A DNA stretch of 64,000 nt from an uncultured cyanobacterium (GTDB lineage: Bacteria > Cyanobacteriota > Cyanobacteriia > Cyanobacteriales > CAWUOF01): the NCBI GenBank assembly GCA_963744145.1, contig CAVUSO010000001.1, positions 5,376,001-5,440,000 of the forward strand. The letters are read 5' to 3'. This document shows positions 38,012-48,447 of this stretch, piece after piece. The notes beneath the pieces were generated by a model. That model did no database searches. It saw nothing but the letters and a program-made list of their open reading frames with translations, and was not told where the DNA came from. Each line of letters starts with the position of its first letter. Within the stretch, counting starts at the first letter, position 1. The translations under genes were made by a program, and so were the position numbers.

Positions 38012-38988
38012 CTAAATACTCATTGCTAACATCCGTTGAATGGGTTGTAGTGCTGCTAAACGGGTTTCTTCGGGAAGCGTAATTTCTGGAGTACGGTTTT
38101 TCATGGCTAAATAAAGCTTTTCCAGAGTATTCAGACGCATATGAGGACACTCATTACAACTACACTGGTTCATGGGTGGTGCGGGAATGAAGTGTTTCTC
38201 TGGTGCTTGTTTTTGCATTTGATGAATAATTCCGGGTTCAGTAGCAACAATAAAACTCGAACTGGAACTGGAGCAAGCATATTTTAAGAGTGCAGTAGTA
38301 GAACCAATATAGTCTGCATGACGTAATACTGGTGGCTCACATTCTGGATGAGCAATCACTTCAGCATCGGGATGGACAATTTTCAGCTCGACAATTTTCT
38401 GTTCGGAAAATGTTTCATGGACGATACAACTACCTTGCCATAACACCATCTCTCTACCAGTCTGCTCCATTACATATCTCCCTAAATTACGATCTGGAGC
38501 AAAAATAATTGGTTGATCAGCGGGAATTTGATTAACAATTTTGACCACATTAGAACTGGTGCAAATAATGTCACTGAGAGCTTTAATATCGGCAGTACAG
38601 TTGATATAAGAAATGACTAAATGATTGGGATGGGCAGCTTTAAAAGCTGCAAAAGCATCTTTGGGACAACTATCAGCGAGGGAACAACCAGCTTTTAGAT
38701 CGGTAAAAGTACCAGTTTATTCGGGTTGAGAATTTTGGCAGTTTCTGCCATAAAGTGGACACCCGCAAAGACAATCACATCCGCATCGGTGTTGGCTGCT
38801 TTACGGGAAAGCTCTAGAGAATCACCAATGTAGTCAGCCACATCTTGAATATCAGGATCTTGGTAATAATGGGCTAAAACCACGGCATTCAGCTTTTTTT
38901 TCTCTTCTTCAATGAGAGTAAACAGATCCTGGTGGACTGGAATTGTAGTTTTGAGACTATCTTCGGAACGGATTAGAGTGGTAAACAC
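38012..38988 (-). CDS. nadA: Quinolinate synthase NadA, split by a one-base deletion near 38702
   Basis: [20 protein letters not shown], [P][32 protein letters not shown]; adding one base to CCG ATC restores the frame. Confidence 0.92.
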
Positions 38989-40873: not shown

Positions 40874-41116
40874 TTATTGAGTGAAAGGCGATCGGGCATG
40901 ATCCATCTCGTCGATCGTTTTTGCTTCACGCCAAAATTTTAAACAACCTGCAACATCACTTAAGGTTGTTTCAGCAAAAGCTTTTTTTGGCTTGATTAAA
41001 ATTCCATCACCAGTATCAATCAAAAGTAATTCCTGACCCGCTTCCCAACCGTAAGCTTTCCCCAGAGATGGAGGAATAATCATTTGTCCTTGGTCTGATA
41101 CTCTGATTGTTTCCAT
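40874..41116 (-). CDS. AbrB/MazE/SpoVT-family antitoxin; 3' end possibly altered at a HIP1-like site
   Basis: VSDQGQMIIP...GWEAGQEL...GDGILIKP. Confidence 0.8.
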   Translation of the reverse strand: METIRVSDQGQMIIPPSLGKAYGWEAGQELLLIDTGDGILIKPKKAFAETTLSDVAGCLKFWREAKTIDEMDHARSPFTQ

Positions 41117-41340: not shown

Positions 41341-41591
41341 CACCGATAAATCCCAAACTACAGATCATCTTAGCAAACGCGATCGCACAGTTCAAAATTC
41401 AGGCGATCGCATAATTATAATTAGATTCATTACTAGGAACTTGCTGTTTTAATACCCACCGCTTTTTTATATTTTTGGACAAAATTTTATCCCATTTCAA
41501 GGTTAAGATAGTTTAATTAATGGGACAACTGGTGGCATAATTAAATTAACTAAATTAAAATAACAGATAAAAACTTTCCCTGGTACAGATA

Positions 41592-42008
41592 ATGGACCCA
41601 ATAACTGCTGGTGCGATCGCACTAATTACTCTGCTGGTCAACAAAACTTTTGAGAAAACGGGCGAAATAGTTGTAAGTAAAGCTTTTGACCAAGCAGGTA
41701 ATGTTCTCAACTTGCTCAAACACAAATCTCCCGAAACTGCCAAAATGATTGCAGCAGCAGAAAATCCTGCTTTACCTCCTGGTGAAACGGTATATATGGA
41801 TGCTGTGGTAGAAAAGGTACAATCAGAAGCCCAACGTGACCCGGAAATTAAGGCAGAGTTGGAAAAATTAGGGGCTATGATCGAAGCAGCGAAAAAGGTA
41901 GATCCGCAATTGGCTAATACTATTAATGAAAATTGGCAGGGGATATGTTTTAAAAATGCTAATCCTACTATTTCTAATAATACTTTTAATTTTGGTGGCA
42001 AAGGATGA
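41592..42008 (+). CDS. Small helical protein (Bell/HeLo-like candidate effector) with a C-terminal motif shared with the adjacent NLR
   Basis: MDPIT hydrophobic N-terminal helix, helical core, C-terminal NWQGICFKNANPTISNNTFNF. Confidence 0.75.
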   Translation: MDPITAGAIALITLLVNKTFEKTGEIVVSKAFDQAGNVLNLLKHKSPETAKMIAAAENPALPPGETVYMDAVVEKVQSEAQRDPEIKAELEKLGAMIEAAKKVDPQLANTINENWQGICFKNANPTISNNTFNFGGKG

Positions 42009-43620
42009 ATATTGAAAAAAATTGGCAGGGAATAAATTTTGAAGATGCCAATCCTAGTATTACGGGTAATCAATTTATCTTTAATAATCAAACACCTTCA
42101 ATTCCTGTTTATAATATTCCTTATACTGGTGTTCTTAATTTTGTAGGACGAAAAACGGAACTGCAAACACTGCAAGGGCAATTCCAGAAGTGTGATGGTG
42201 TAGTCATTTCTGCTGTGGCGGGGATGGGTGGTGTGGGCAAAACTGAATTGGCGATTAAATATGCACGCACCCATGAACAAGATTATCCTGGAGGGATTTG
42301 CTGGTTATCTGCTAGAGATGAGGGTTTAGCTAATAATATTTTACAATTTGCGCTGCTTGATCTGAAGTTGGAAGTGCCGCAAAAATTAGGCGAAAAACTG
42401 CTATCTCTTAAAGAACAGGTAAGCTGGTGTTGGCAGCATTGGCAACCATCGGCGGGGGCAGTTTTATTGGTGTTAGATGATGTTACTATTTGGAAAAGTT
42501 GTCGAGATTTTATTCCCAAAATTAATCGCTTTAAGATTTTAATTACTACCCGATTACGACATCTCGATAGCAATTTTCTTCAGTTATCGTTAGATGTATT
42601 TTCACCGGATGAAGCTTTAGAATTTTTGAGGAATTTGCTTGGGGAAAAGCGAGTAGCACAGGAACTGGAAATTGCTAAAGATTTATGTAAATGGCTGGGG
42701 TATCTGCCTTTGGGGTTGGAATTGGTAGGACGATATTTGGTGGAAGATCCTGATTTGTCTTTAATGAAAATGTGGGAGAGGTTAAGACAAAAACGGTTGG
42801 AAGATGAGGCAGTTAATCCTGGAGATGAAGATTTACAGGATACAGAAATGACAGCAAAGAGAGGAGTAAAAACTGCGTTTGAGTTAAGCTGGCAAGAATT
42901 GGATGTGATGACACAGCAATTAGGGGAATTGTTGAGTTTGTTTGCGCCAGCTATTATTCCTTGGAAATTATTAGTTGAATCTATAGCTAAATTGCTGAAT
43001 TGGAATGAGGCAGAGGTTGATAAAGGAAAAAAGGAACTTTATAAGCGATTTTTAATTAAGAGGTTAGCAGAAAGAGAGGCTTGTTATGAAATTCACCCTT
43101 TGATTAGGGAGTTTTTGAAAGCAAAGATAGATGAGTCTGAACTAGCACAAGATGTCAAACAGGCTTTTGTAGAAGTGATGGTAACAATGGCCAAGGAAAT
43201 TCCTGATTCAATCACGATAGATTTAATTGAGAAGTTAAAAGTTGTAATTCCTCATCTAGAAGAAGTAGCGGAAAACTTGATTGATATAGTTAGGGATGAA
43301 GATTTATATTGCGTTTTTTTAATGGGTTAGGTAGATTTTATCAAGGTCAAGGATTATATAATTTAGCAGAACCCTGGTTAGAACAGTCTTTAAGCAAAAT
43401 AAAAGCAAAGTTGGGCAACGACCATCCCGATGTGGCTGCCAGTTTGAACAATCTGGCATTACTCTACAACAACCAAGGGAGATACGCAGAAGCGGAACCG
43501 TTATTCCTTGACGCTTTAGTAATATGCGAAAATTGTTTAGGAAAAGATCATCCTGGTACTATTGATATTCGTCAAAATCTAGATATACTTAAAGAATATC
43601 TCAGCCAGAGTAAATATTAG
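42005..43620 (+). CDS. NLR-like NB-ARC + TPR protein, frameshifted at a T7 run (43314-43320)
   Basis: GMGGVGKT, LLVLDDV, GYLPLGL, IHPL; continuation frame holds kinesin-light-chain-type TPRs (HPDVAASLNNLALLY..QGRYAEAEPL). Confidence 0.9.
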
Positions 43621-44499: not shown

Positions 44500-44820
44500 A
44501 TGATAGAAACAGAAAAAATTCTGCAAATTAGTCGGGCTATTGCTAGGGAATTTAAGCCAAACAAAATTATTTTATTTGGTTCATACGCTTATGGGAATCC
44601 TCAAGATGACTCAGATGTTGATTTATTAGTCATTTTGCCGTACAAGGGGAGTAATTTTCAGAAAAGTTGGGAAATTTTAAATAAAATTCAACCGAATTTT
44701 GCTCTAGATTTGTTAGTGCGAACTCCTGGAGATGTGGAGCAACGTCTCGCCTGGAATGATTTTTTTCTGCGGGAAATCATTGAAAAAGGAAAAGTGATTT
44801 ATGAATCCGCTAACAGTTGA
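44500..44820 (+). CDS. Minimal nucleotidyltransferase (MNT) antitoxin
   Basis: ILFGSYAYG..DSDVDLLV. Confidence 0.9.
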   Translation: MIETEKILQISRAIAREFKPNKIILFGSYAYGNPQDDSDVDLLVILPYKGSNFQKSWEILNKIQPNFALDLLVRTPGDVEQRLAWNDFFLREIIEKGKVIYESANS

Positions 44821-44983
44821 ATGGGTTGATAAAGCTGAGGGGGATTTTATTACAGCTTTGCGGGAGTTACGAGCCAGGAAATCTCCCAACTATGATGCGG
44901 CATCTTTTCACGCTCAACAGTGTGTTGAGAAATATTTGAAAGCGCATTTGCAAGAATCTGGAATTGCTTTCAGTAAAACATAG
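44801..44983 (+). pseudogene. Truncated HEPN toxin
   Basis: EWVDKAEGD..FHAQQCVEKYLKA..FSKT*; stops before the usual KTHDL motif and C-terminal half. Confidence 0.8.
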
Positions 44984-45046: not shown

Positions 45047-45331
45047 ATGCAAGCATATAAACTCAAAGGAAAAATAGATCCATCTGGTAATTTAGTGATT
45101 ACCGAAACCGTAAATTTACCCCCTGGAGATGTGGAAGTGATAGTCTGGCAAACTACTGAGATGTTTGATAACACTACAACTTCAGCAAGTGAACTACGAT
45201 CAGAAACACCAAAGAGAAAATCTAGGGTAAAAGCATTTGAGGGTTTATTTGAAAATGCTCCACCCATCCCACCAAACTTTGATCCAGACCTAGCTAAATG
45301 GGAATATTTAAAAGAGAAACATAAGCTGTGA
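45047..45331 (+). CDS. Putative antitoxin upstream of the PIN gene
   Basis: GTGA overlap with the PIN gene; ends WEYLKEKHKL. Confidence 0.65.
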   Translation: MQAYKLKGKIDPSGNLVITETVNLPPGDVEVIVWQTTEMFDNTTTSASELRSETPKRKSRVKAFEGLFENAPPIPPNFDPDLAKWEYLKEKHKL

Positions 45332-45747
45332 AAATCTTGCTAGATACTAATATAGTTGTTGATGATGCCCTGGAAAGACAGCCTTTTTGGGATGCAAGCG
45401 AGCAAGTTTTATCCCTGATTGAACAAAGACAAATTGAAAGTTATATTTCAGCTTCAACTTTTAGTGATTTGTATTACATCATCCGTAGAGCAAGAGGTAA
45501 AGATTGGACGTTTACTTATTTAAACCAGTTAGTTACCTTTTGCCGAATTGCTACTGTAAATCAGGCAGTAATTACAATGGCTATCACCGCAAATTTTAGT
45601 GATTTTGAAGATGCCATTCAATACGCCACTGCTGTATTAAATCAATTAGATGTGATTATTACCCGTAATCCTAAAGACTTCTCTGTTGTTCAACCGCGAA
45701 TTCTTACTCCTCAGCAATTAATTGAGGAATTAAAAAATTCTTGTTGA
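45328..45747 (+). CDS. PIN-domain (VapC-like) protein
   Basis: ILLDTNIVVD, DFEDAIQ, IITRNPKDF. Confidence 0.9.
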   Translation: MKILLDTNIVVDDALERQPFWDASEQVLSLIEQRQIESYISASTFSDLYYIIRRARGKDWTFTYLNQLVTFCRIATVNQAVITMAITANFSDFEDAIQYATAVLNQLDVIITRNPKDFSVVQPRILTPQQLIEELKNSC

Positions 45748-46353: not shown

Positions 46354-46701
46354 TTACAAAGGTAAGTATTGAACTTGGTTGATTAAATCTTCAGGGTCAC
46401 TTACTTTCGCAAGTATTTCTAAGTCGCGCACACAATCGCCAACGGTTACATACTGTTGATGCGCGTAGATAACCCCACTAAAATTTATTCCCTCTTGCTG
46501 GTGATGATTTGCCATGACTAAAAAATCATCATCTTGGGTAAAAATAACCCGCTGAAGTTCCGTAGCACGATCAAGTAAAATCGGATCAGGTGTGCCAGTT
46601 CTGCCATCTTCTTGTACGGTGAGAACGTCTATCCCTCGCAATTTTAAACCATTTGTAATAGCTCGGCGGACATGTTCATCGATGTACAGAGCTAGGGTCA
46701 T
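46354..46701 (-). CDS. DUF5615 PIN-like protein
   Basis: LYIDEHV, DPILLDRATELQRVIFTQDDDF. Confidence 0.85.
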   Translation of the reverse strand: MTLALYIDEHVRRAITNGLKLRGIDVLTVQEDGRTGTPDPILLDRATELQRVIFTQDDDFLVMANHHQQEGINFSGVIYAHQQYVTVGDCVRDLEILAKVSDPEDLINQVQYLPL

Positions 46702-47015
46702 TTAATTAGCCCTTGGATGCGAAGTTTTTTAACTAAAGCAGATTCACCAGTTTGTTGACGTAACTTTTCAACCTGCTCGAATCGTTGCTGCATATCGGCA
46801 TCTAGTTCTTCTTTGTTATCCCAATAATAAGCTAAGGCAGAATAAATTTGACTCATGCTTAAATAGGGGTGTTGAAATTTAATTTCTTCGGGACTCCAGC
46901 CAAAACTAAGATGACCGGAAACTAATTCAATTACTTTCATCGTTGTTCCGGCGATGTAGGGAACTTTGTTTTCATCCAGTTCTATATATTTGTGTTGAGT
47001 AGCAGTCAAGTTCAT
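46698..47015 (-). CDS. DUF433 antitoxin-like protein
   Basis: PYIAGTTMKV..GWSPEEI..HPYLSMSQIYSALAYY; start placed at ATG 47015. Confidence 0.88.
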   Translation of the reverse strand: MNLTATQHKYIELDENKVPYIAGTTMKVIELVSGHLSFGWSPEEIKFQHPYLSMSQIYSALAYYWDNKEELDADMQQRFEQVEKLRQQTGESALVKKLRIQGLIK

Positions 47016-47115
47016 CAAATTTGCCTTGTTGCTGATTACACTATAATTATAGCAGATTTTTGTGATTCGGCTGATAAAGATACGGTGAGCGATTGAATCC
47101 GGTTGATTAATTCTG

Positions 47116-47490
47116 TTAACCTTGCCCGTTGCCTTGGTTTCTCTGTTGAAGTTGTAAATATTCCCAGATGCGTCTAATCTCGGCTCGATCTTCTGCACTA
47201 CGTTCTGCTAATTCCGTATTGCGTTGTGCTAGTTCGCGATCGTGTTGTGCTAATTCGATATTGCGTTGTGCCAATTCCAACATAAATCCGGACAAGTTGG
47301 TAACAGTAGCCGTCAATTGCCGTTGGCTCTCGAAGAGAGAATCTACCTTATCAGTAATAACCGAAAATTCTCCCTGAAGTGCGAGGATTTCATCAAGCAA
47401 GATATTCGTTCTTTTCCCAAATTCGGTCTCGTCCTGACTAACTCGTTCTCTTAACGCTGTTATTTGTTCTTGTAGTGAATTGGTTTCCAT
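47116..47490 (-). CDS. Coiled-coil hypothetical protein with 7-aa repeats
   Basis: ELAQRNI/ELAQHDR/ELAQRNT repeats, EIRRIWEYL. Confidence 0.7.
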   Translation of the reverse strand: METNSLQEQITALRERVSQDETEFGKRTNILLDEILALQGEFSVITDKVDSLFESQRQLTATVTNLSGFMLELAQRNIELAQHDRELAQRNTELAERSAEDRAEIRRIWEYLQLQQRNQGNGQG

Positions 47491-47685: not shown

Positions 47686-48246
47686 TTAGTCCTCAAAAAT
47701 CGCATCAACACTAATCACTATGTCCGGAAATGAAAGAGGTGAGATACTTTCACCGCGTCTAAATTGTTGGATACTTTCATAACCATTAGCTCCGGGATTA
47801 CGATAAACCTCAACTAATTCAGCCCGTACATCTACGATCCAAAGTTCAATAATCCCAGCTCTCCCATAGAGAACTGACTTCACATTGCGATCGTTGTCGA
47901 TGGTCGTATCTGCTACTTCGATCAATAAATATACGTCTTGGGGTTGGGGGTGTAACTTTCGGTATGAACGACGTTTCAAGATTGATACATCAGGTTGGGG
48001 TTCTAATCCCCCGTTTAGCCTGACTGGAGTTTGTGACAAGATTGAAATACGTTTACCCAAAGCGTCATAGAATAGTTCATACAAGCAACCAATACAGCCT
48101 GCATGACGACTACCCATCGGTGCCATAAGAATTATATCCCCATCAATTAGTTCAGTCCGTTCATCAGGTCCAATTATCCCAACTTCCCCCAGCTTGTAAT
48201 ATTCCTCCACAGTAAATTTCTTTCGCTCTGTTGCTACTACAGACAT
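47686..48246 (-). CDS. Uma2-family endonuclease
   Basis: FTVEEYYKL, ELIDG, EPQPD, LLIEVADTT; start placed at ATG 48246. Confidence 0.9.
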   Translation of the reverse strand: MSVVATERKKFTVEEYYKLGEVGIIGPDERTELIDGDIILMAPMGSRHAGCIGCLYELFYDALGKRISILSQTPVRLNGGLEPQPDVSILKRRSYRKLHPQPQDVYLLIEVADTTIDNDRNVKSVLYGRAGIIELWIVDVRAELVEVYRNPGANGYESIQQFRRGESISPLSFPDIVISVDAIFED

Positions 48247-48447
48247 AATCCTTATCCTATTGCTTGAATGGGGTCTATCTAACAATTAGATTTTACTCTG
48301 ATGGCTTTCTTCGTAGGCTGATTGTCCCGTAGGCGATCCAGTTCCCAGTCGCATATTTGGGATTGACTCAACTCTTCTCTGTAATGTTCAGATGTTGGTT
48401 AAAACTCACAGGAACCACAGCATCGATCGCATCTTTCGACTTGAGAA

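What the first reader, a model, noticed from the sequence alone, without database searches (positions are those of the whole stretch)
41592..43620. Two-gene NLR locus sharing a terminal motif: candidate amyloid/prion-type signalling system
Seen: the 138-aa protein ends in NWQGICFKNANPTISNNTFNF (41931-41993). The translationally coupled NB-ARC-TPR protein (ATGA overlap) begins with NWQGINFEDANPSITGNQFIF (42020-42082). The motifs are 13/21 identical without gaps, N/Q/G-rich with spaced hydrophobic residues, and the NLR has no other N-terminal effector domain. Established: fungal NWD2/HET-S and bacterial Bell/BASS loci have this layout. The oligomerised NLR templates an amyloid fold onto the C-terminal motif of an adjacent helical, membrane-targeting effector. 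Inference: the MDPIT-starting protein is a Bell/HeLo-like effector in a cell-death or anti-phage module within a TA-rich island. I do not recognise this motif as a named BASS or RHIM family, so it may be a new amyloid class.
Basis: partly seen in the sequence, partly recalled or inferred. Interest (0 to 1): 0.92.

Follow-up and report, generated by a model that had tools for sequence, protein, structure and literature searches.

The report
Known-type amyloid-signalling NLR gene pair
A cyanobacterial cell-death effector and the sensor gene next to it carry the same short amyloid-type tag, as in a bacterial signalling family described in 2020, and here the sensor gene is interrupted by a frameshift.

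Summary
A 138-aa ORF (41592-42008) and the ATGA-overlapping NB-ARC ORF (42005-43330) share a 21-residue motif, 13/21 identical; 0 of 200 shuffles exceed 9.

The system-level interpretation is supported. It is a Bell-type effector plus NLR pair of the BASS amyloid-signalling kind (Dyrka et al. 2020). The pairing recurs in 19 of 24 related loci with the same motif.

The "new amyloid class" claim is not supported. Near-identical motifs are in the published BASS training set as cluster C12, probably BASS7.

The effector motif also has Cys where 19/20 effector-side and 20/20 NLR-side motifs have Asn. The copy may be decaying, or the frameshift may be an assembly error, since nadA in the window is also frameshifted.

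Amyloid formation and function are inferred, not tested.

In passing: 26 of 73 related loci have one motif copy, then an in-frame TGA (23/26 TGA-C) and a covarying hairpin 8 nt downstream, then the NB-ARC. This is a candidate programmed readthrough and is absent from the window.

The parts
41592..42008 (+). Effector gene, 138 aa: Bell-like helical domain plus C-terminal BASS-type motif
   Evidence: ORF. 67 homologues of 75-242 aa at E<=0.01; every source name that gives an organism is cyanobacterial, and most rows carry no name. 534 cluster representatives at E<=1e-3. No Pfam or PADLOC family.
41592..41927 (+). Helical N-terminal domain (aa 1-112), starting MDPIT with a hydrophobic first helix
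   Evidence: AF2 gives six helices with pLDDT 72.1 and pTM 0.58. M1, P3, T5, G7, A8, I9, A10 are invariant in 70/70 relatives.
41931..41993 (+). Effector-side motif NWQGICFKNANPTISNNTFNF
   Evidence: Motif HMM E 1.8e-10. pLDDT <50 in the monomer model. TIGR03804 parallel beta-helix repeat at aa 109-133, E 2.4e-4. Cys at motif position 6, where 19/20 effector-side and 20/20 NLR-side motifs have Asn.
42005..42008 (+). ATGA stop/start overlap
   Evidence: The same overlap occurs in 8 of 31 paired related loci.
42005..43330 (+). NLR gene, first frame (441 aa): motif, linker, NB-ARC, winged-helix/DUF7779
   Evidence: NB-ARC aa 50-267, E 7.4e-15. DUF7779 aa 295-379, E 3.3e-5, which is below the Pfam cut-off. 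Colinear with aa 4-435 of 700-1089-aa homologues.
42020..42082 (+). NLR-side motif NWQGINFEDANPSITGNQFIF
   Evidence: Motif HMM E 1.7e-7. Carries the NLR-side-typical Asp at motif position 9.
43314..43320 (+). T7 run at the frame break between the NB-ARC module and the TPR
   Evidence: Homologues align up to about 43309-43321 in the first frame and from 43306-43321 (43318 for five of the seven) in the other frame. U UUU UUA is in phase at 43315-43321 (read sequence). The junction is continuous in 35 of 53 related loci examined.
43309..43620 (+). TPR remnant (103-aa ORF, about 2 TPR units) in another frame
   Evidence: TPR_12 E 4.1e-28, TPR_10 E 8.2e-25. Aligns to aa about 438-535 of homologues.

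Best explanation
The locus is a two-gene amyloid-signalling module of the Bell/BASS-NLR kind described for filamentous bacteria. The 138-aa protein is the executioner: a small helical Bell-like domain with a hydrophobic N-terminal helix (MDPIT...), held inactive, followed by a roughly 21-residue motif that is disordered in the monomer. The adjacent NB-ARC/TPR protein is the sensor and carries the same motif at its N-terminus. The following steps are inferred by analogy with NWD2/HET-S, with the BASS1/BASS3 tests and with Bab/Agp. When the sensor oligomerises, its clustered N-terminal motifs adopt a cross-beta fold. That fold templates the effector's motif, which releases the helical domain to attack the membrane and kill the cell, as abortive infection or another regulated death. 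The motif is not a new class. It belongs to a cyanobacterial BASS family already present in published data sets (cluster C12, probably BASS7). In this genome the sensor gene is split by a frameshift at a T7 run, keeps only about two TPR units, and the effector motif has an unusual Asn-to-Cys change. The copy may therefore be inactive, unless the frameshift is an assembly error.
For: Shown here. (1) The motif pair is real and far beyond chance. (2) The domains fit: NB-ARC E 7.4e-15 and TPR_12 E 4.1e-28, and an all-helical effector whose motif region has pLDDT <50. (3) Pairing is conserved. Of 73 usable related loci, 31 show a significant effector-tail/partner-head motif pair. Within this motif class it is 19 of 24, of which 16 have an NB-ARC partner. 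(4) Cognate pairs are more alike than non-cognate ones (13.95 vs 12.41 of 21; 0/5000 permutations), and each side has its own typical residues. (5) The same conserved helical domain carries at least six different tail motifs, each matched by its own partner (NB-ARC or NACHT), which is the cassette behaviour of BASS systems. (6) The motif is in the published BASS set, and the L015 homologue's tail is identical to entry C12_s015. From papers: the definition of Bell/BASS pairs, 91.3% of pairs collinear and 42% overlapping, and BASS7-10 found only in cyanobacteria (Dyrka et al. preprint, Results read). [quoted passage not shown] Bab/Agp is an abortive-infection system, and the Bell N-terminus carries a 'MEPIS' motif (Ibarlosa et al. 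preprint, Introduction and Discussion read).
Against: No experiment or computation here shows amyloid formation for this motif family; per the papers read, only BASS1, 3 and 11 were tested. Fold searches gave no significant match to HeLo, MLKL, CC or any other structure (best E 1.5 and 0.81), and models are only moderate (pLDDT 66.6 and 72.1). No Pfam, NCBIfam or PADLOC family covers the effector domain. The sensor ORF is interrupted, so as written it would lack its TPR sensor. Motif position 6 is Cys instead of the near-invariant Asn. The BASS number is an inference from data-set sizes, not a look-up.
Confidence: 0.78

Rival explanations
1. Same kind of system, but a dead remnant. The frameshift is real, the sensor is truncated before its TPR domain, the TPR array has collapsed and the effector motif is mutating, so nothing signals any more.
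For: Frame break at 43314-43320. Only about 100 aa of TPR against 260-650 aa in most homologues. Cys at a position that is Asn in 39 of 40 motifs examined, 20 per side including the window's. A neighbouring HEPN gene is also truncated. Breaks near the same NB-ARC/TPR junction occur in L027 and L065.
Against: nadA, normally a housekeeping gene, also carries a single frameshift in this window, so indel errors of the assembly are plausible. An intact homologue (L036, 531 aa) has an equally short TPR part. Both ORFs are otherwise open, and the motif HMM still scores both copies strongly.
Confidence: 0.35
2. The shared motif is a docking or co-folding tag, or a neutral leftover of a duplication, without prion-like templating.
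For: No amyloid test exists for this motif family. A TIGR03804 beta-helix repeat hit fits any beta-solenoid rung, not only amyloid.
Against: Terminal placement on both partners, the length, the N/Q/G-rich pattern with spaced hydrophobics, side-specific residues and cassette swapping all match families for which templating was shown. Conservation across 19 of 24 loci argues against a neutral leftover.
Confidence: 0.08
3. The NLR is made whole by programmed -1 ribosomal frameshifting on U UUU UUA (43315-43321).
For: The heptamer is in the right phase and the zero-frame stop follows three codons later (sequence).
Against: The site is not conserved. The junction is continuous in 35 of 53 related loci. 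The two other broken ones, L027 and L065, break at different positions without this heptamer. No stimulatory structure was looked for or seen.
Confidence: 0.04
4. A new amyloid motif class unrelated to named BASS families.
For: No Pfam motif model (RHIM, Ses_B, HET-s, NACHT_sigma) matched at E<=1. The strings are in no main text of the paper library.
Against: Near-identical sequences, on both the Bell side and the NLR side, are in the BASS data set of PMC8086366.
Confidence: 0.03

Closest known systems
Bell-domain / NLR gene pairs with BASS motifs (Dyrka et al. 2020, bioRxiv 10.1101/2020.01.06.895854)
   Same: A roughly 120-140-aa helical effector with an acidic residue at position 2, a collinear overlapping NB-ARC/TPR gene, a 20-25-aa motif shared by the effector C-terminus and the NLR N-terminus, a cyanobacterial host, and a motif present in their data (cluster C12).
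   Different: The sensor is frameshifted with a short TPR part, and the effector motif has Cys at a near-invariant Asn. No experiment exists for this motif family.
HET-S / NWD2 of Podospora anserina (HRAM motif)
   Same: Adjacent effector and NLR genes. The NLR N-terminal motif templates the effector C-terminal motif. The two sides show typical sequence differences (PMC8086366, Materials section read).
   Different: HET-S carries two pseudo-repeats whereas this effector has one motif copy. The NLR there is NACHT/WD rather than NB-ARC/TPR. There is no sequence similarity.
Bab/Agp (BASS11) abortive-infection system of E. coli (bioRxiv 10.1101/2024.11.07.622273)
   Same: [quoted passage not shown]
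   Different: The sensor there is TPR-GreA/B-C-PIN, not an NLR. The motif family differs. Function has been shown there and not here.
RHIM / PP / BASS3
   Same: A short amyloid signalling motif that controls cell death.
   Different: The G-phi-Q-phi-G core that defines this group is absent, and no Pfam RHIM or Ses_B hit was found.

Membership tests
Bell/BASS-NLR amyloid-signalling pair | Short (about 120-140 aa) effector with an alpha-helical N-terminal domain | tested here: met
   138 aa. AF2 models are all-helical, with pLDDT 66.6 and 72.1.
Bell/BASS-NLR amyloid-signalling pair | Hydrophobic N-terminal helix with an acidic residue at position 2 or 3 ('MEPIS'-type start) | tested here: met
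   The protein starts MDPITAGAIALITLL. M1, P3 and T5 are invariant in 70/70 relatives. The feature is described.
Bell/BASS-NLR amyloid-signalling pair | Effector is a sequence homologue of the Bell domain as the authors defined it (HMMER from ONI86675.1) | tested here: met
   The test is indirect. The L015 homologue (47% identity over residues 1-137, E 1e-28) has a tail identical over 36 residues to entry C12_s015, a fragment whose label and length fit the paper's BASS1-10 sets, which were drawn from Bell-domain homologues and their neighbouring NLRs. No Bell profile was on hand for a direct test.
Bell/BASS-NLR amyloid-signalling pair | Adjacent collinear NB-ARC or NACHT gene with TPR/WD repeats | tested here: met
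   ATGA overlap, NB-ARC E 7.4e-15, TPR_12 E 4.1e-28. The TPR is in another frame.
Bell/BASS-NLR amyloid-signalling pair | The same roughly 20-25-aa motif at the effector C-terminus and the NLR N-terminus | tested here: met
   13/21 identical, 0/200 shuffles at 10 or more. HMM E 1.8e-10 and 1.7e-7.
Bell/BASS-NLR amyloid-signalling pair | Motif belongs to one of the named families BASS1-10 | tested here: inconclusive
   The motif is in the published set under label C12. The link to BASS7 rests only on matching set sizes: C09 up to s110 for BASS6 (111), C12 up to s015 for BASS7 (17), C20 up to s014 for BASS8 (14), Ccya03 up to s037 for BASS9 (38). The figures and Table S2 could not be read.
Bell/BASS-NLR amyloid-signalling pair | Motifs form amyloid, act as prions and cross-seed | not testable with these tools
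   Complex prediction never accepted the job because its queue was full. Wet-lab assays are needed.
HeLo / Hell / MLKL-4HB / CC membrane-targeting superfamily | Structural similarity of the helical bundle | tested here: inconclusive
   There were 0 PDB matches at E<=0.001. The best were 8s5r_A (E 1.5) and Rx-CC 4m70_Q (E 0.81, prob 0.18, TM 0.30). The models are of moderate confidence.
RHIM / PP / BASS3 | Central G-phi-Q-phi-G core | tested here: not met
   The motif reads N-W-Q-G-I-N/C-F and has no such core. No Pfam RHIM or Ses_B match at E<=1.
HET-s/HRAM | [quoted passage not shown] | tested here: not met
   The HMM finds one copy in the effector.
Catalogued anti-phage defence systems (PADLOC-DB 2.0) | A match of the effector or sensor to a PADLOC model | tested here: not met
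   No hit for the effector or the NB-ARC ORF, and only a generic TPR model for the 103-aa ORF.

The most novel reading that the evidence does not exclude
The window's pair may be the 'unpacked' form of a family that also exists as a one-ORF recoding switch. In 26 of 73 related loci, and by eye in about 9 more with other sensor types, a single reading frame runs Bell domain, then motif, then UGA, then sensor. The stop is always UGA, mostly UGA-CUA or UGA-CUG, followed 8 nt later by a hairpin that covaries. Programmed readthrough would then give many free effectors and a few effector-motif-sensor fusions that carry the identical amyloid tag. On the NB-ARC tree the two architectures interleave, so they would interconvert. 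Programmed readthrough in bacterial cellular genes is rare: the review read lists one case. A recoding-set sensor-to-effector ratio for a prion-like death switch would be new.
Probability: 0.4. Interest if true: 0.8.

Novelty: new member of a known kind. Interest (0 to 1): 0.35.

Why it matters
For the window itself, the result is ordinary. It is one more Bell/BASS-NLR pair, possibly a decaying one, in a toxin-antitoxin island of a filamentous-type cyanobacterium. It adds a data point on how such death modules are lost: a break at the NB-ARC/TPR junction, TPR shrinkage, and a motif mutation at an Asn that is near-invariant across relatives.

The wider value lies in the family survey it prompted. 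One conserved helical executioner domain is combined with many tail motifs and several sensor types. About a third of the loci use an in-frame UGA plus a conserved hairpin instead of a second motif copy. If that is readthrough, it offers a simple, testable bacterial model of how a cell sets the ratio of sensor to effector in amyloid signalling.

Tried and rejected
It was never queued, so there is no result of any kind.

2. Fold searches of two AF2 models against the PDB gave no match at E<=0.001. A PDB sequence search with the family profile found nothing beyond designed coiled coils.

3. The Atlas lead 'HetE-N' (PF20701 on 20% of the nearest cluster) was not confirmed: 0 of 70 family members match it at E<=0.1.

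4. A search for fused Bell-motif-NB-ARC proteins found none. There were no hits among 658 longer candidates. Only 3 of the best 150 profile hits exceed 220 aa, and none has an NB-ARC.

5. The -1 frameshifting idea for the T7 run is not supported by relatives.

6. The pseudoknot idea (loop GGG pairing with downstream CCC) could not be discriminated, because the two-motif loci use the same codons there.

7. The hairpin is not more stable than shuffled sequence (z about -0.5), so its support is covariation only.

8. Rfam has no family for the post-TGA element, and the element is absent from the window.

9. The exact BASS number could not be established.

10. The first related-loci run failed on too diverse an alignment. 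It was repeated with 10 closer sequences.

Full report
**1. Observation**

ORF listing and sequence show a 138-aa ORF at 41592-42008 (+). A 441-aa ORF at 42005-43330 (+) starts inside an ATGA overlap with it. The first ORF ends ..NENWQGICFKNANPTISNNTFNFGGKG and the second begins MNIEKNWQGINFEDANPSITGNQFIF.

- In 200 shuffles of both proteins, the best 21-mer identity found anywhere was at most 9.
- The effector tail aligned to the downstream DNA scores 80, against 27.0 +/- 4.0 (maximum 40) for 100 shuffles.
- Pfam gives NB-ARC (aa 50-267, E 7.4e-15) and a weak DUF7779 hit in the 441-aa ORF. It gives nothing for the 138-aa protein.

The TPR part (TPR_12, E 4.1e-28) is a separate 103-aa ORF in another frame, at 43309-43620.

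**2. The sensor gene is interrupted**

Seven full-length homologous NLRs (700-1089 aa) were compared with the window. Six of them align colinearly across the break. Their residues 4-435 match 42017-43309/43321 in the first frame, and residues about 438-535 match 43318-43617 in the other frame. The seventh, L021, matches the TPR part only as a separate weak piece (E 3e-13).

- The break lies at a T7 run, 43314-43320.
- Only about 100 aa of TPR follow, against 260-650 aa in most homologues. One intact homologue (L036, 531 aa) is equally short.
- The heptamer U UUU UUA is in phase for -1 slippage. However, the junction is continuous in 35 of 53 related loci examined, and the two other broken loci (L027, L065) break at other positions. 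I therefore rate programmed frameshifting as unlikely.
- nadA (about 38012-38988, minus strand) also carries a single frameshift, while 41 ORFs of 150 aa or more are open across the window. An assembly indel at the homopolymer is thus as plausible as a real mutation.

**3. Relatives of the effector**

- A word-indexed search found 67 proteins of 75-242 aa at E<=0.01. Every source name that gives an organism is cyanobacterial, and most rows carry no name.
- A profile of the N-terminal domain found 534 cluster representatives at E<=1e-3 and 216 at E<=1e-10.
- The N-terminus is highly conserved. M1, P3, T5, G7, A8, I9 and A10 are invariant in 70/70 relatives, with consensus MEPLTAGAIA. The C-terminal 25-30 residues switch between several unrelated motif classes.
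- AF2 models are all-helical (pLDDT 66.6 for the whole protein, 72.1 for residues 1-112), and the motif region has pLDDT below 50.
- Fold searches against the PDB gave no match at E<=0.001. The top hits were 8s5r_A (E 1.5) and the potato Rx coiled-coil domain 4m70_Q (E 0.81, probability 0.18, TM 0.30). Structural kinship with HeLo, MLKL or CC domains is therefore not shown.
- Pfam, NCBIfam and PADLOC have no model for the domain.
- NCBIfam does match residues 109-133 to a parallel beta-helix repeat (TIGR03804, E 2.4e-4).

**4. Is the pairing conserved?**

One scan of genome contigs returned 80 loci. All are from cyanobacteria apart from two contigs of a MAG bin labelled Acetobacteraceae and one MAG (L008) titled only 'uncultured bacterium'. 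Five have a truncated effector and two lack downstream DNA, which leaves 73 usable loci.

- In 31 of 73 loci, the effector tail has a significant match at the head of the downstream gene. "Significant" means a score above all 100 shuffles and z>4.
- Among the 24 loci with the window's motif class (ENW[QK]GI...), 19 are paired. Sixteen of these have an NB-ARC partner, and three (L001-L003) have a 258/259-aa partner without NB-ARC.
- Other motif classes pair with NACHT proteins (L014, L018, L023, L061).
- Over the 20 pairs of this class, including the window, cognate motifs share 13.95 of 21 residues and non-cognate motifs 12.41 (0 of 5000 permutations reach the observed value). Relatedness inflates this test.
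- The two sides differ systematically. The NLR side favours D at motif positions 9 and 16 and K at position 15.
- A motif HMM built without the window finds exactly the two expected sites in the 64-kb six-frame translation (E 1.8e-10 and 1.7e-7; next best E 0.8).
- The window's effector has Cys at motif position 6. Asn occupies this position in 19/20 effector-side and 20/20 NLR-side motifs.

**5. What is known**

Dyrka et al. (bioRxiv 10.1101/2020.01.06.895854; I read the Results parts 1-2, the first part of the Discussion and the supplement legends) define this layout exactly.

- Bell-domain proteins are about 120-140 aa, with a hydrophobic N-terminal helix and an acidic residue at position 2 or 3.
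- They sit next to NB-ARC/NACHT-TPR/WD genes. Of these pairs, 91.3% are collinear and 42% overlap.
- The two genes share a motif of about 25 aa, called BASS. There are ten families, of which BASS7-10 occur only in cyanobacteria.
- BASS1 and BASS3 formed prions and fibrils, and NLR-side motifs converted Bell-side motifs.

Ibarlosa et al. (bioRxiv 10.1101/2024.11.07.622273; Introduction part 1 and Discussion read) show that a Bell-related effector with a BASS11 motif executes abortive infection in E. coli. They also note a conserved N-terminal 'MEPIS' motif. The window protein starts MDPIT.

The supplementary data file of PMC8086366 (searched by string; Materials section read) contains short fragments labelled C12.

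- ..NENWQGINFKNANPTISGNTFNFGK differs from the window's 24 residues NENWQGICFKNANPTISNNTFNFG at two positions.
- PEVEKRLTTVIENWQGINIKGGKPIIKNNTLNFGSK is identical to the tail of the L015 effector.
- NLR-side entries such as MSENWHGINIKGGKNEIKGNTFIFNSTEK are also present.

The paper states that such fragments come from the BASS1-10 families. The label-to-size pattern suggests that C12 is BASS7: C09 up to s110 for BASS6 (111 sequences), C12 up to s015 for BASS7 (17), C20 up to s014 for BASS8 (14), and Ccya03 up to s037 for BASS9 (38). This is an inference, not a look-up. The motif strings occur in no main text of the library.

The motif is therefore catalogued, not new.

**6. Setting**

The flanks hold the following genes:

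- a MazE/AbrB antitoxin (40874-41116, minus strand);
- a nucleotidyltransferase with a HEPN gene truncated at 60 aa (44500-44983);
- a PIN toxin with an upstream partner (45047-45747);
- a DUF5615/DUF433 pair (46354-47198, minus strand);
- a Uma2 nuclease (47686-48285, minus strand).

GC is 36-39% across 40-47 kb and 42-45% from 47 kb on. Promoter-like sites are no more frequent than chance, and no terminator-like site lies between the genes.

**7. Mechanism**

What is shown: the anatomy, its conservation, and the match to the published family.

What is inferred by analogy: oligomerisation of the NB-ARC sensor brings the N-terminal motifs together. They adopt a cross-beta fold that templates the effector's tail. 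The helical domain is then released to damage the membrane.

For this copy the outcome depends on whether the frameshift is real.

**8. Noticed in the relatives (not in the window)**

In 26 of the 73 loci there is no second motif copy. Instead the effector ORF and the NB-ARC ORF are in one frame with exactly one stop between them.

*The stop codon*
- The stop is TGA in 26/26 loci. One search lists no in-frame locus with TAA or TAG.
- The next base is C in 23/26, and the next codon is CTA in 14 and CTG in 7.
- Spaced two-motif pairs use TAA 17 times, TAG 5 times and TGA once, out of 23 (Fisher 4.6e-13; the loci are not independent).

*No usable start codon*
- In 19/26 loci the first ATG, GTG or TTG after the TGA lies beyond the conserved FVGR motif.
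- In 3 loci it lies only inside or after the P-loop.
- Codons 25-40 nevertheless show coding constraint, with pN/pS 0.41 against 0.90 and 1.59 in the two other frames.
- A two-gene-type NLR aligns straight through the TGA, placing its N-terminal motif on the effector's tail. For example, L005 aligns at query 2-560.

*The downstream hairpin*
- Eight nucleotides after the TGA lies a 5-bp hairpin, GCCCG-AACGGGAA-CGGGY.
- In 36 sequences, 98.3% of cells pair, 4 of 5 pairs show compensatory changes, and 0/500 shuffles reach the covariation score. Slid controls pair at 42% or less (26-sequence version, where RNAalifold finds the same helix unaided).
- Synonymous divergence drops to 0.12 there, against 0.63-0.69 in the NB-ARC.
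- The 38-nt element occurs 24 times in all loci. It is always 4 nt after the effector's TGA and never elsewhere.
- It is absent from the window and from Rfam.

*Other sensor types*
- Twelve further TGA loci were inspected by eye. Nine stay open in frame for about 100 codons and run into other sensor types, such as P-loop NTPases of other kinds and a membrane protein.

*Fusions and phylogeny*
- No sense-codon fusion was found.
- On a quick NB-ARC tree (48 rows), the two architectures interleave, with at least 9 changes forced by well-supported branches.

*Evidence against, or neutral*
- The hairpin is no more stable than shuffled sequence (z about -0.5).
- Seven of the 26 loci have a GTG before FVGR that could serve as a start.
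- Selenocysteine was not excluded by any genome check.

*Context from the literature*
- A review (PMC7026636, passages read) states that UGA is the leakiest stop and that C at +4 and UGA-CUA promote readthrough. It adds that 3' structures stimulate it, and its table lists one bacterial cellular case.
- Three searches of the paper library and a term search in the Dyrka preprint found no mention of readthrough in these loci.

I read this as a candidate programmed UGA readthrough that makes effector and effector-sensor fusion from one ORF. My probability for this is about 0.4.

**9. Verdict**

It is a new member of a known kind with a catalogued motif, and this copy is possibly defective. Interest for the window is modest. 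The family-wide UGA architecture is the item worth following.

**10. Unchecked**

- Amyloid behaviour was not tested. Complex prediction never ran.
- The BASS number is not fixed, because the figures, Table S2 and the bioRxiv supplements could not be read.

Noticed in passing
L005:5397-5460 and the same place in 25 other loci (L006, 8, 9, 11, 13, 16, 17, 35, 40, 43, 44, 48, 50, 51, 53, 55, 60, 62, 65, 68, 70, 72, 77, 78, 79): The effector and the NB-ARC sensor lie in one frame, separated by a single TGA (26/26 TGA, 23/26 TGA-C). A covarying 5-bp hairpin follows 8 nt downstream. In 19/26 there is no usable start codon before the conserved FVGR. This is a candidate programmed readthrough replacing the second motif copy.
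   Followed up: partly
L033, L038, L039, L045, L054, L056, L010, L037, L071 (just after each effector stop): The same TGA-plus-hairpin junction runs in frame into other downstream proteins, including other P-loop NTPases and a protein with predicted membrane helices. The junction is therefore modular and not tied to NB-ARC (by eye).
   Followed up: partly
L001:5465-6241, L002:5465-6244, L003:5492-6268: In Brasilonema and Scytonema the partner that carries the matching N-terminal motif is a 258/259-aa protein. It has no NB-ARC and no Pfam family. Atlas neighbours are unnamed, and pore-forming-toxin clusters appear only at chance-level score 0.81.
   Followed up: partly
window 38012-38988 (-): The quinolinate synthase gene nadA is split by a single frameshift near 38690 into a 97-aa N-part and a 178-aa C-part. 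This hints at indel errors in the assembly, or at a real pseudogene.
   Followed up: partly
window 44801-44983 (+): The HEPN toxin gene of the nucleotidyltransferase/HEPN pair stops after 60 aa of a 117-position domain. It does not continue in any other frame.
   Followed up: yes
L027:6827-6838, L065:6677-6682: Two other loci also break frame near the NB-ARC/TPR junction, at positions different from the window's. The start of the TPR array may be a recurrent breakpoint.
   Followed up: partly
L001, L012, L040, L068 (all Brasilonema sp. CT11); L035 and L038 (same contig of Dendronalium): One genome can hold several paralogous effector/sensor modules with different tail motifs and different architectures. 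This fits motif-specific, non-cross-talking pairs.
   Followed up: no
L063, L069: Two contigs of a MAG bin labelled Acetobacteraceae carry this otherwise cyanobacterial gene family. Mis-binning is the likely cause.
   Followed up: no
window 41555-42091 (-): A 178-aa antisense ORF overlaps the effector gene. The conserved homologues are all on the + strand, so this ORF is most likely spurious.
   Followed up: no
P0167, P0127: Rare longer relatives are deletion fusions. The Bell-like N-terminus is joined directly to the winged-helix/DUF7779 and TPR part, and the NB-ARC core is missing.
   Followed up: partly
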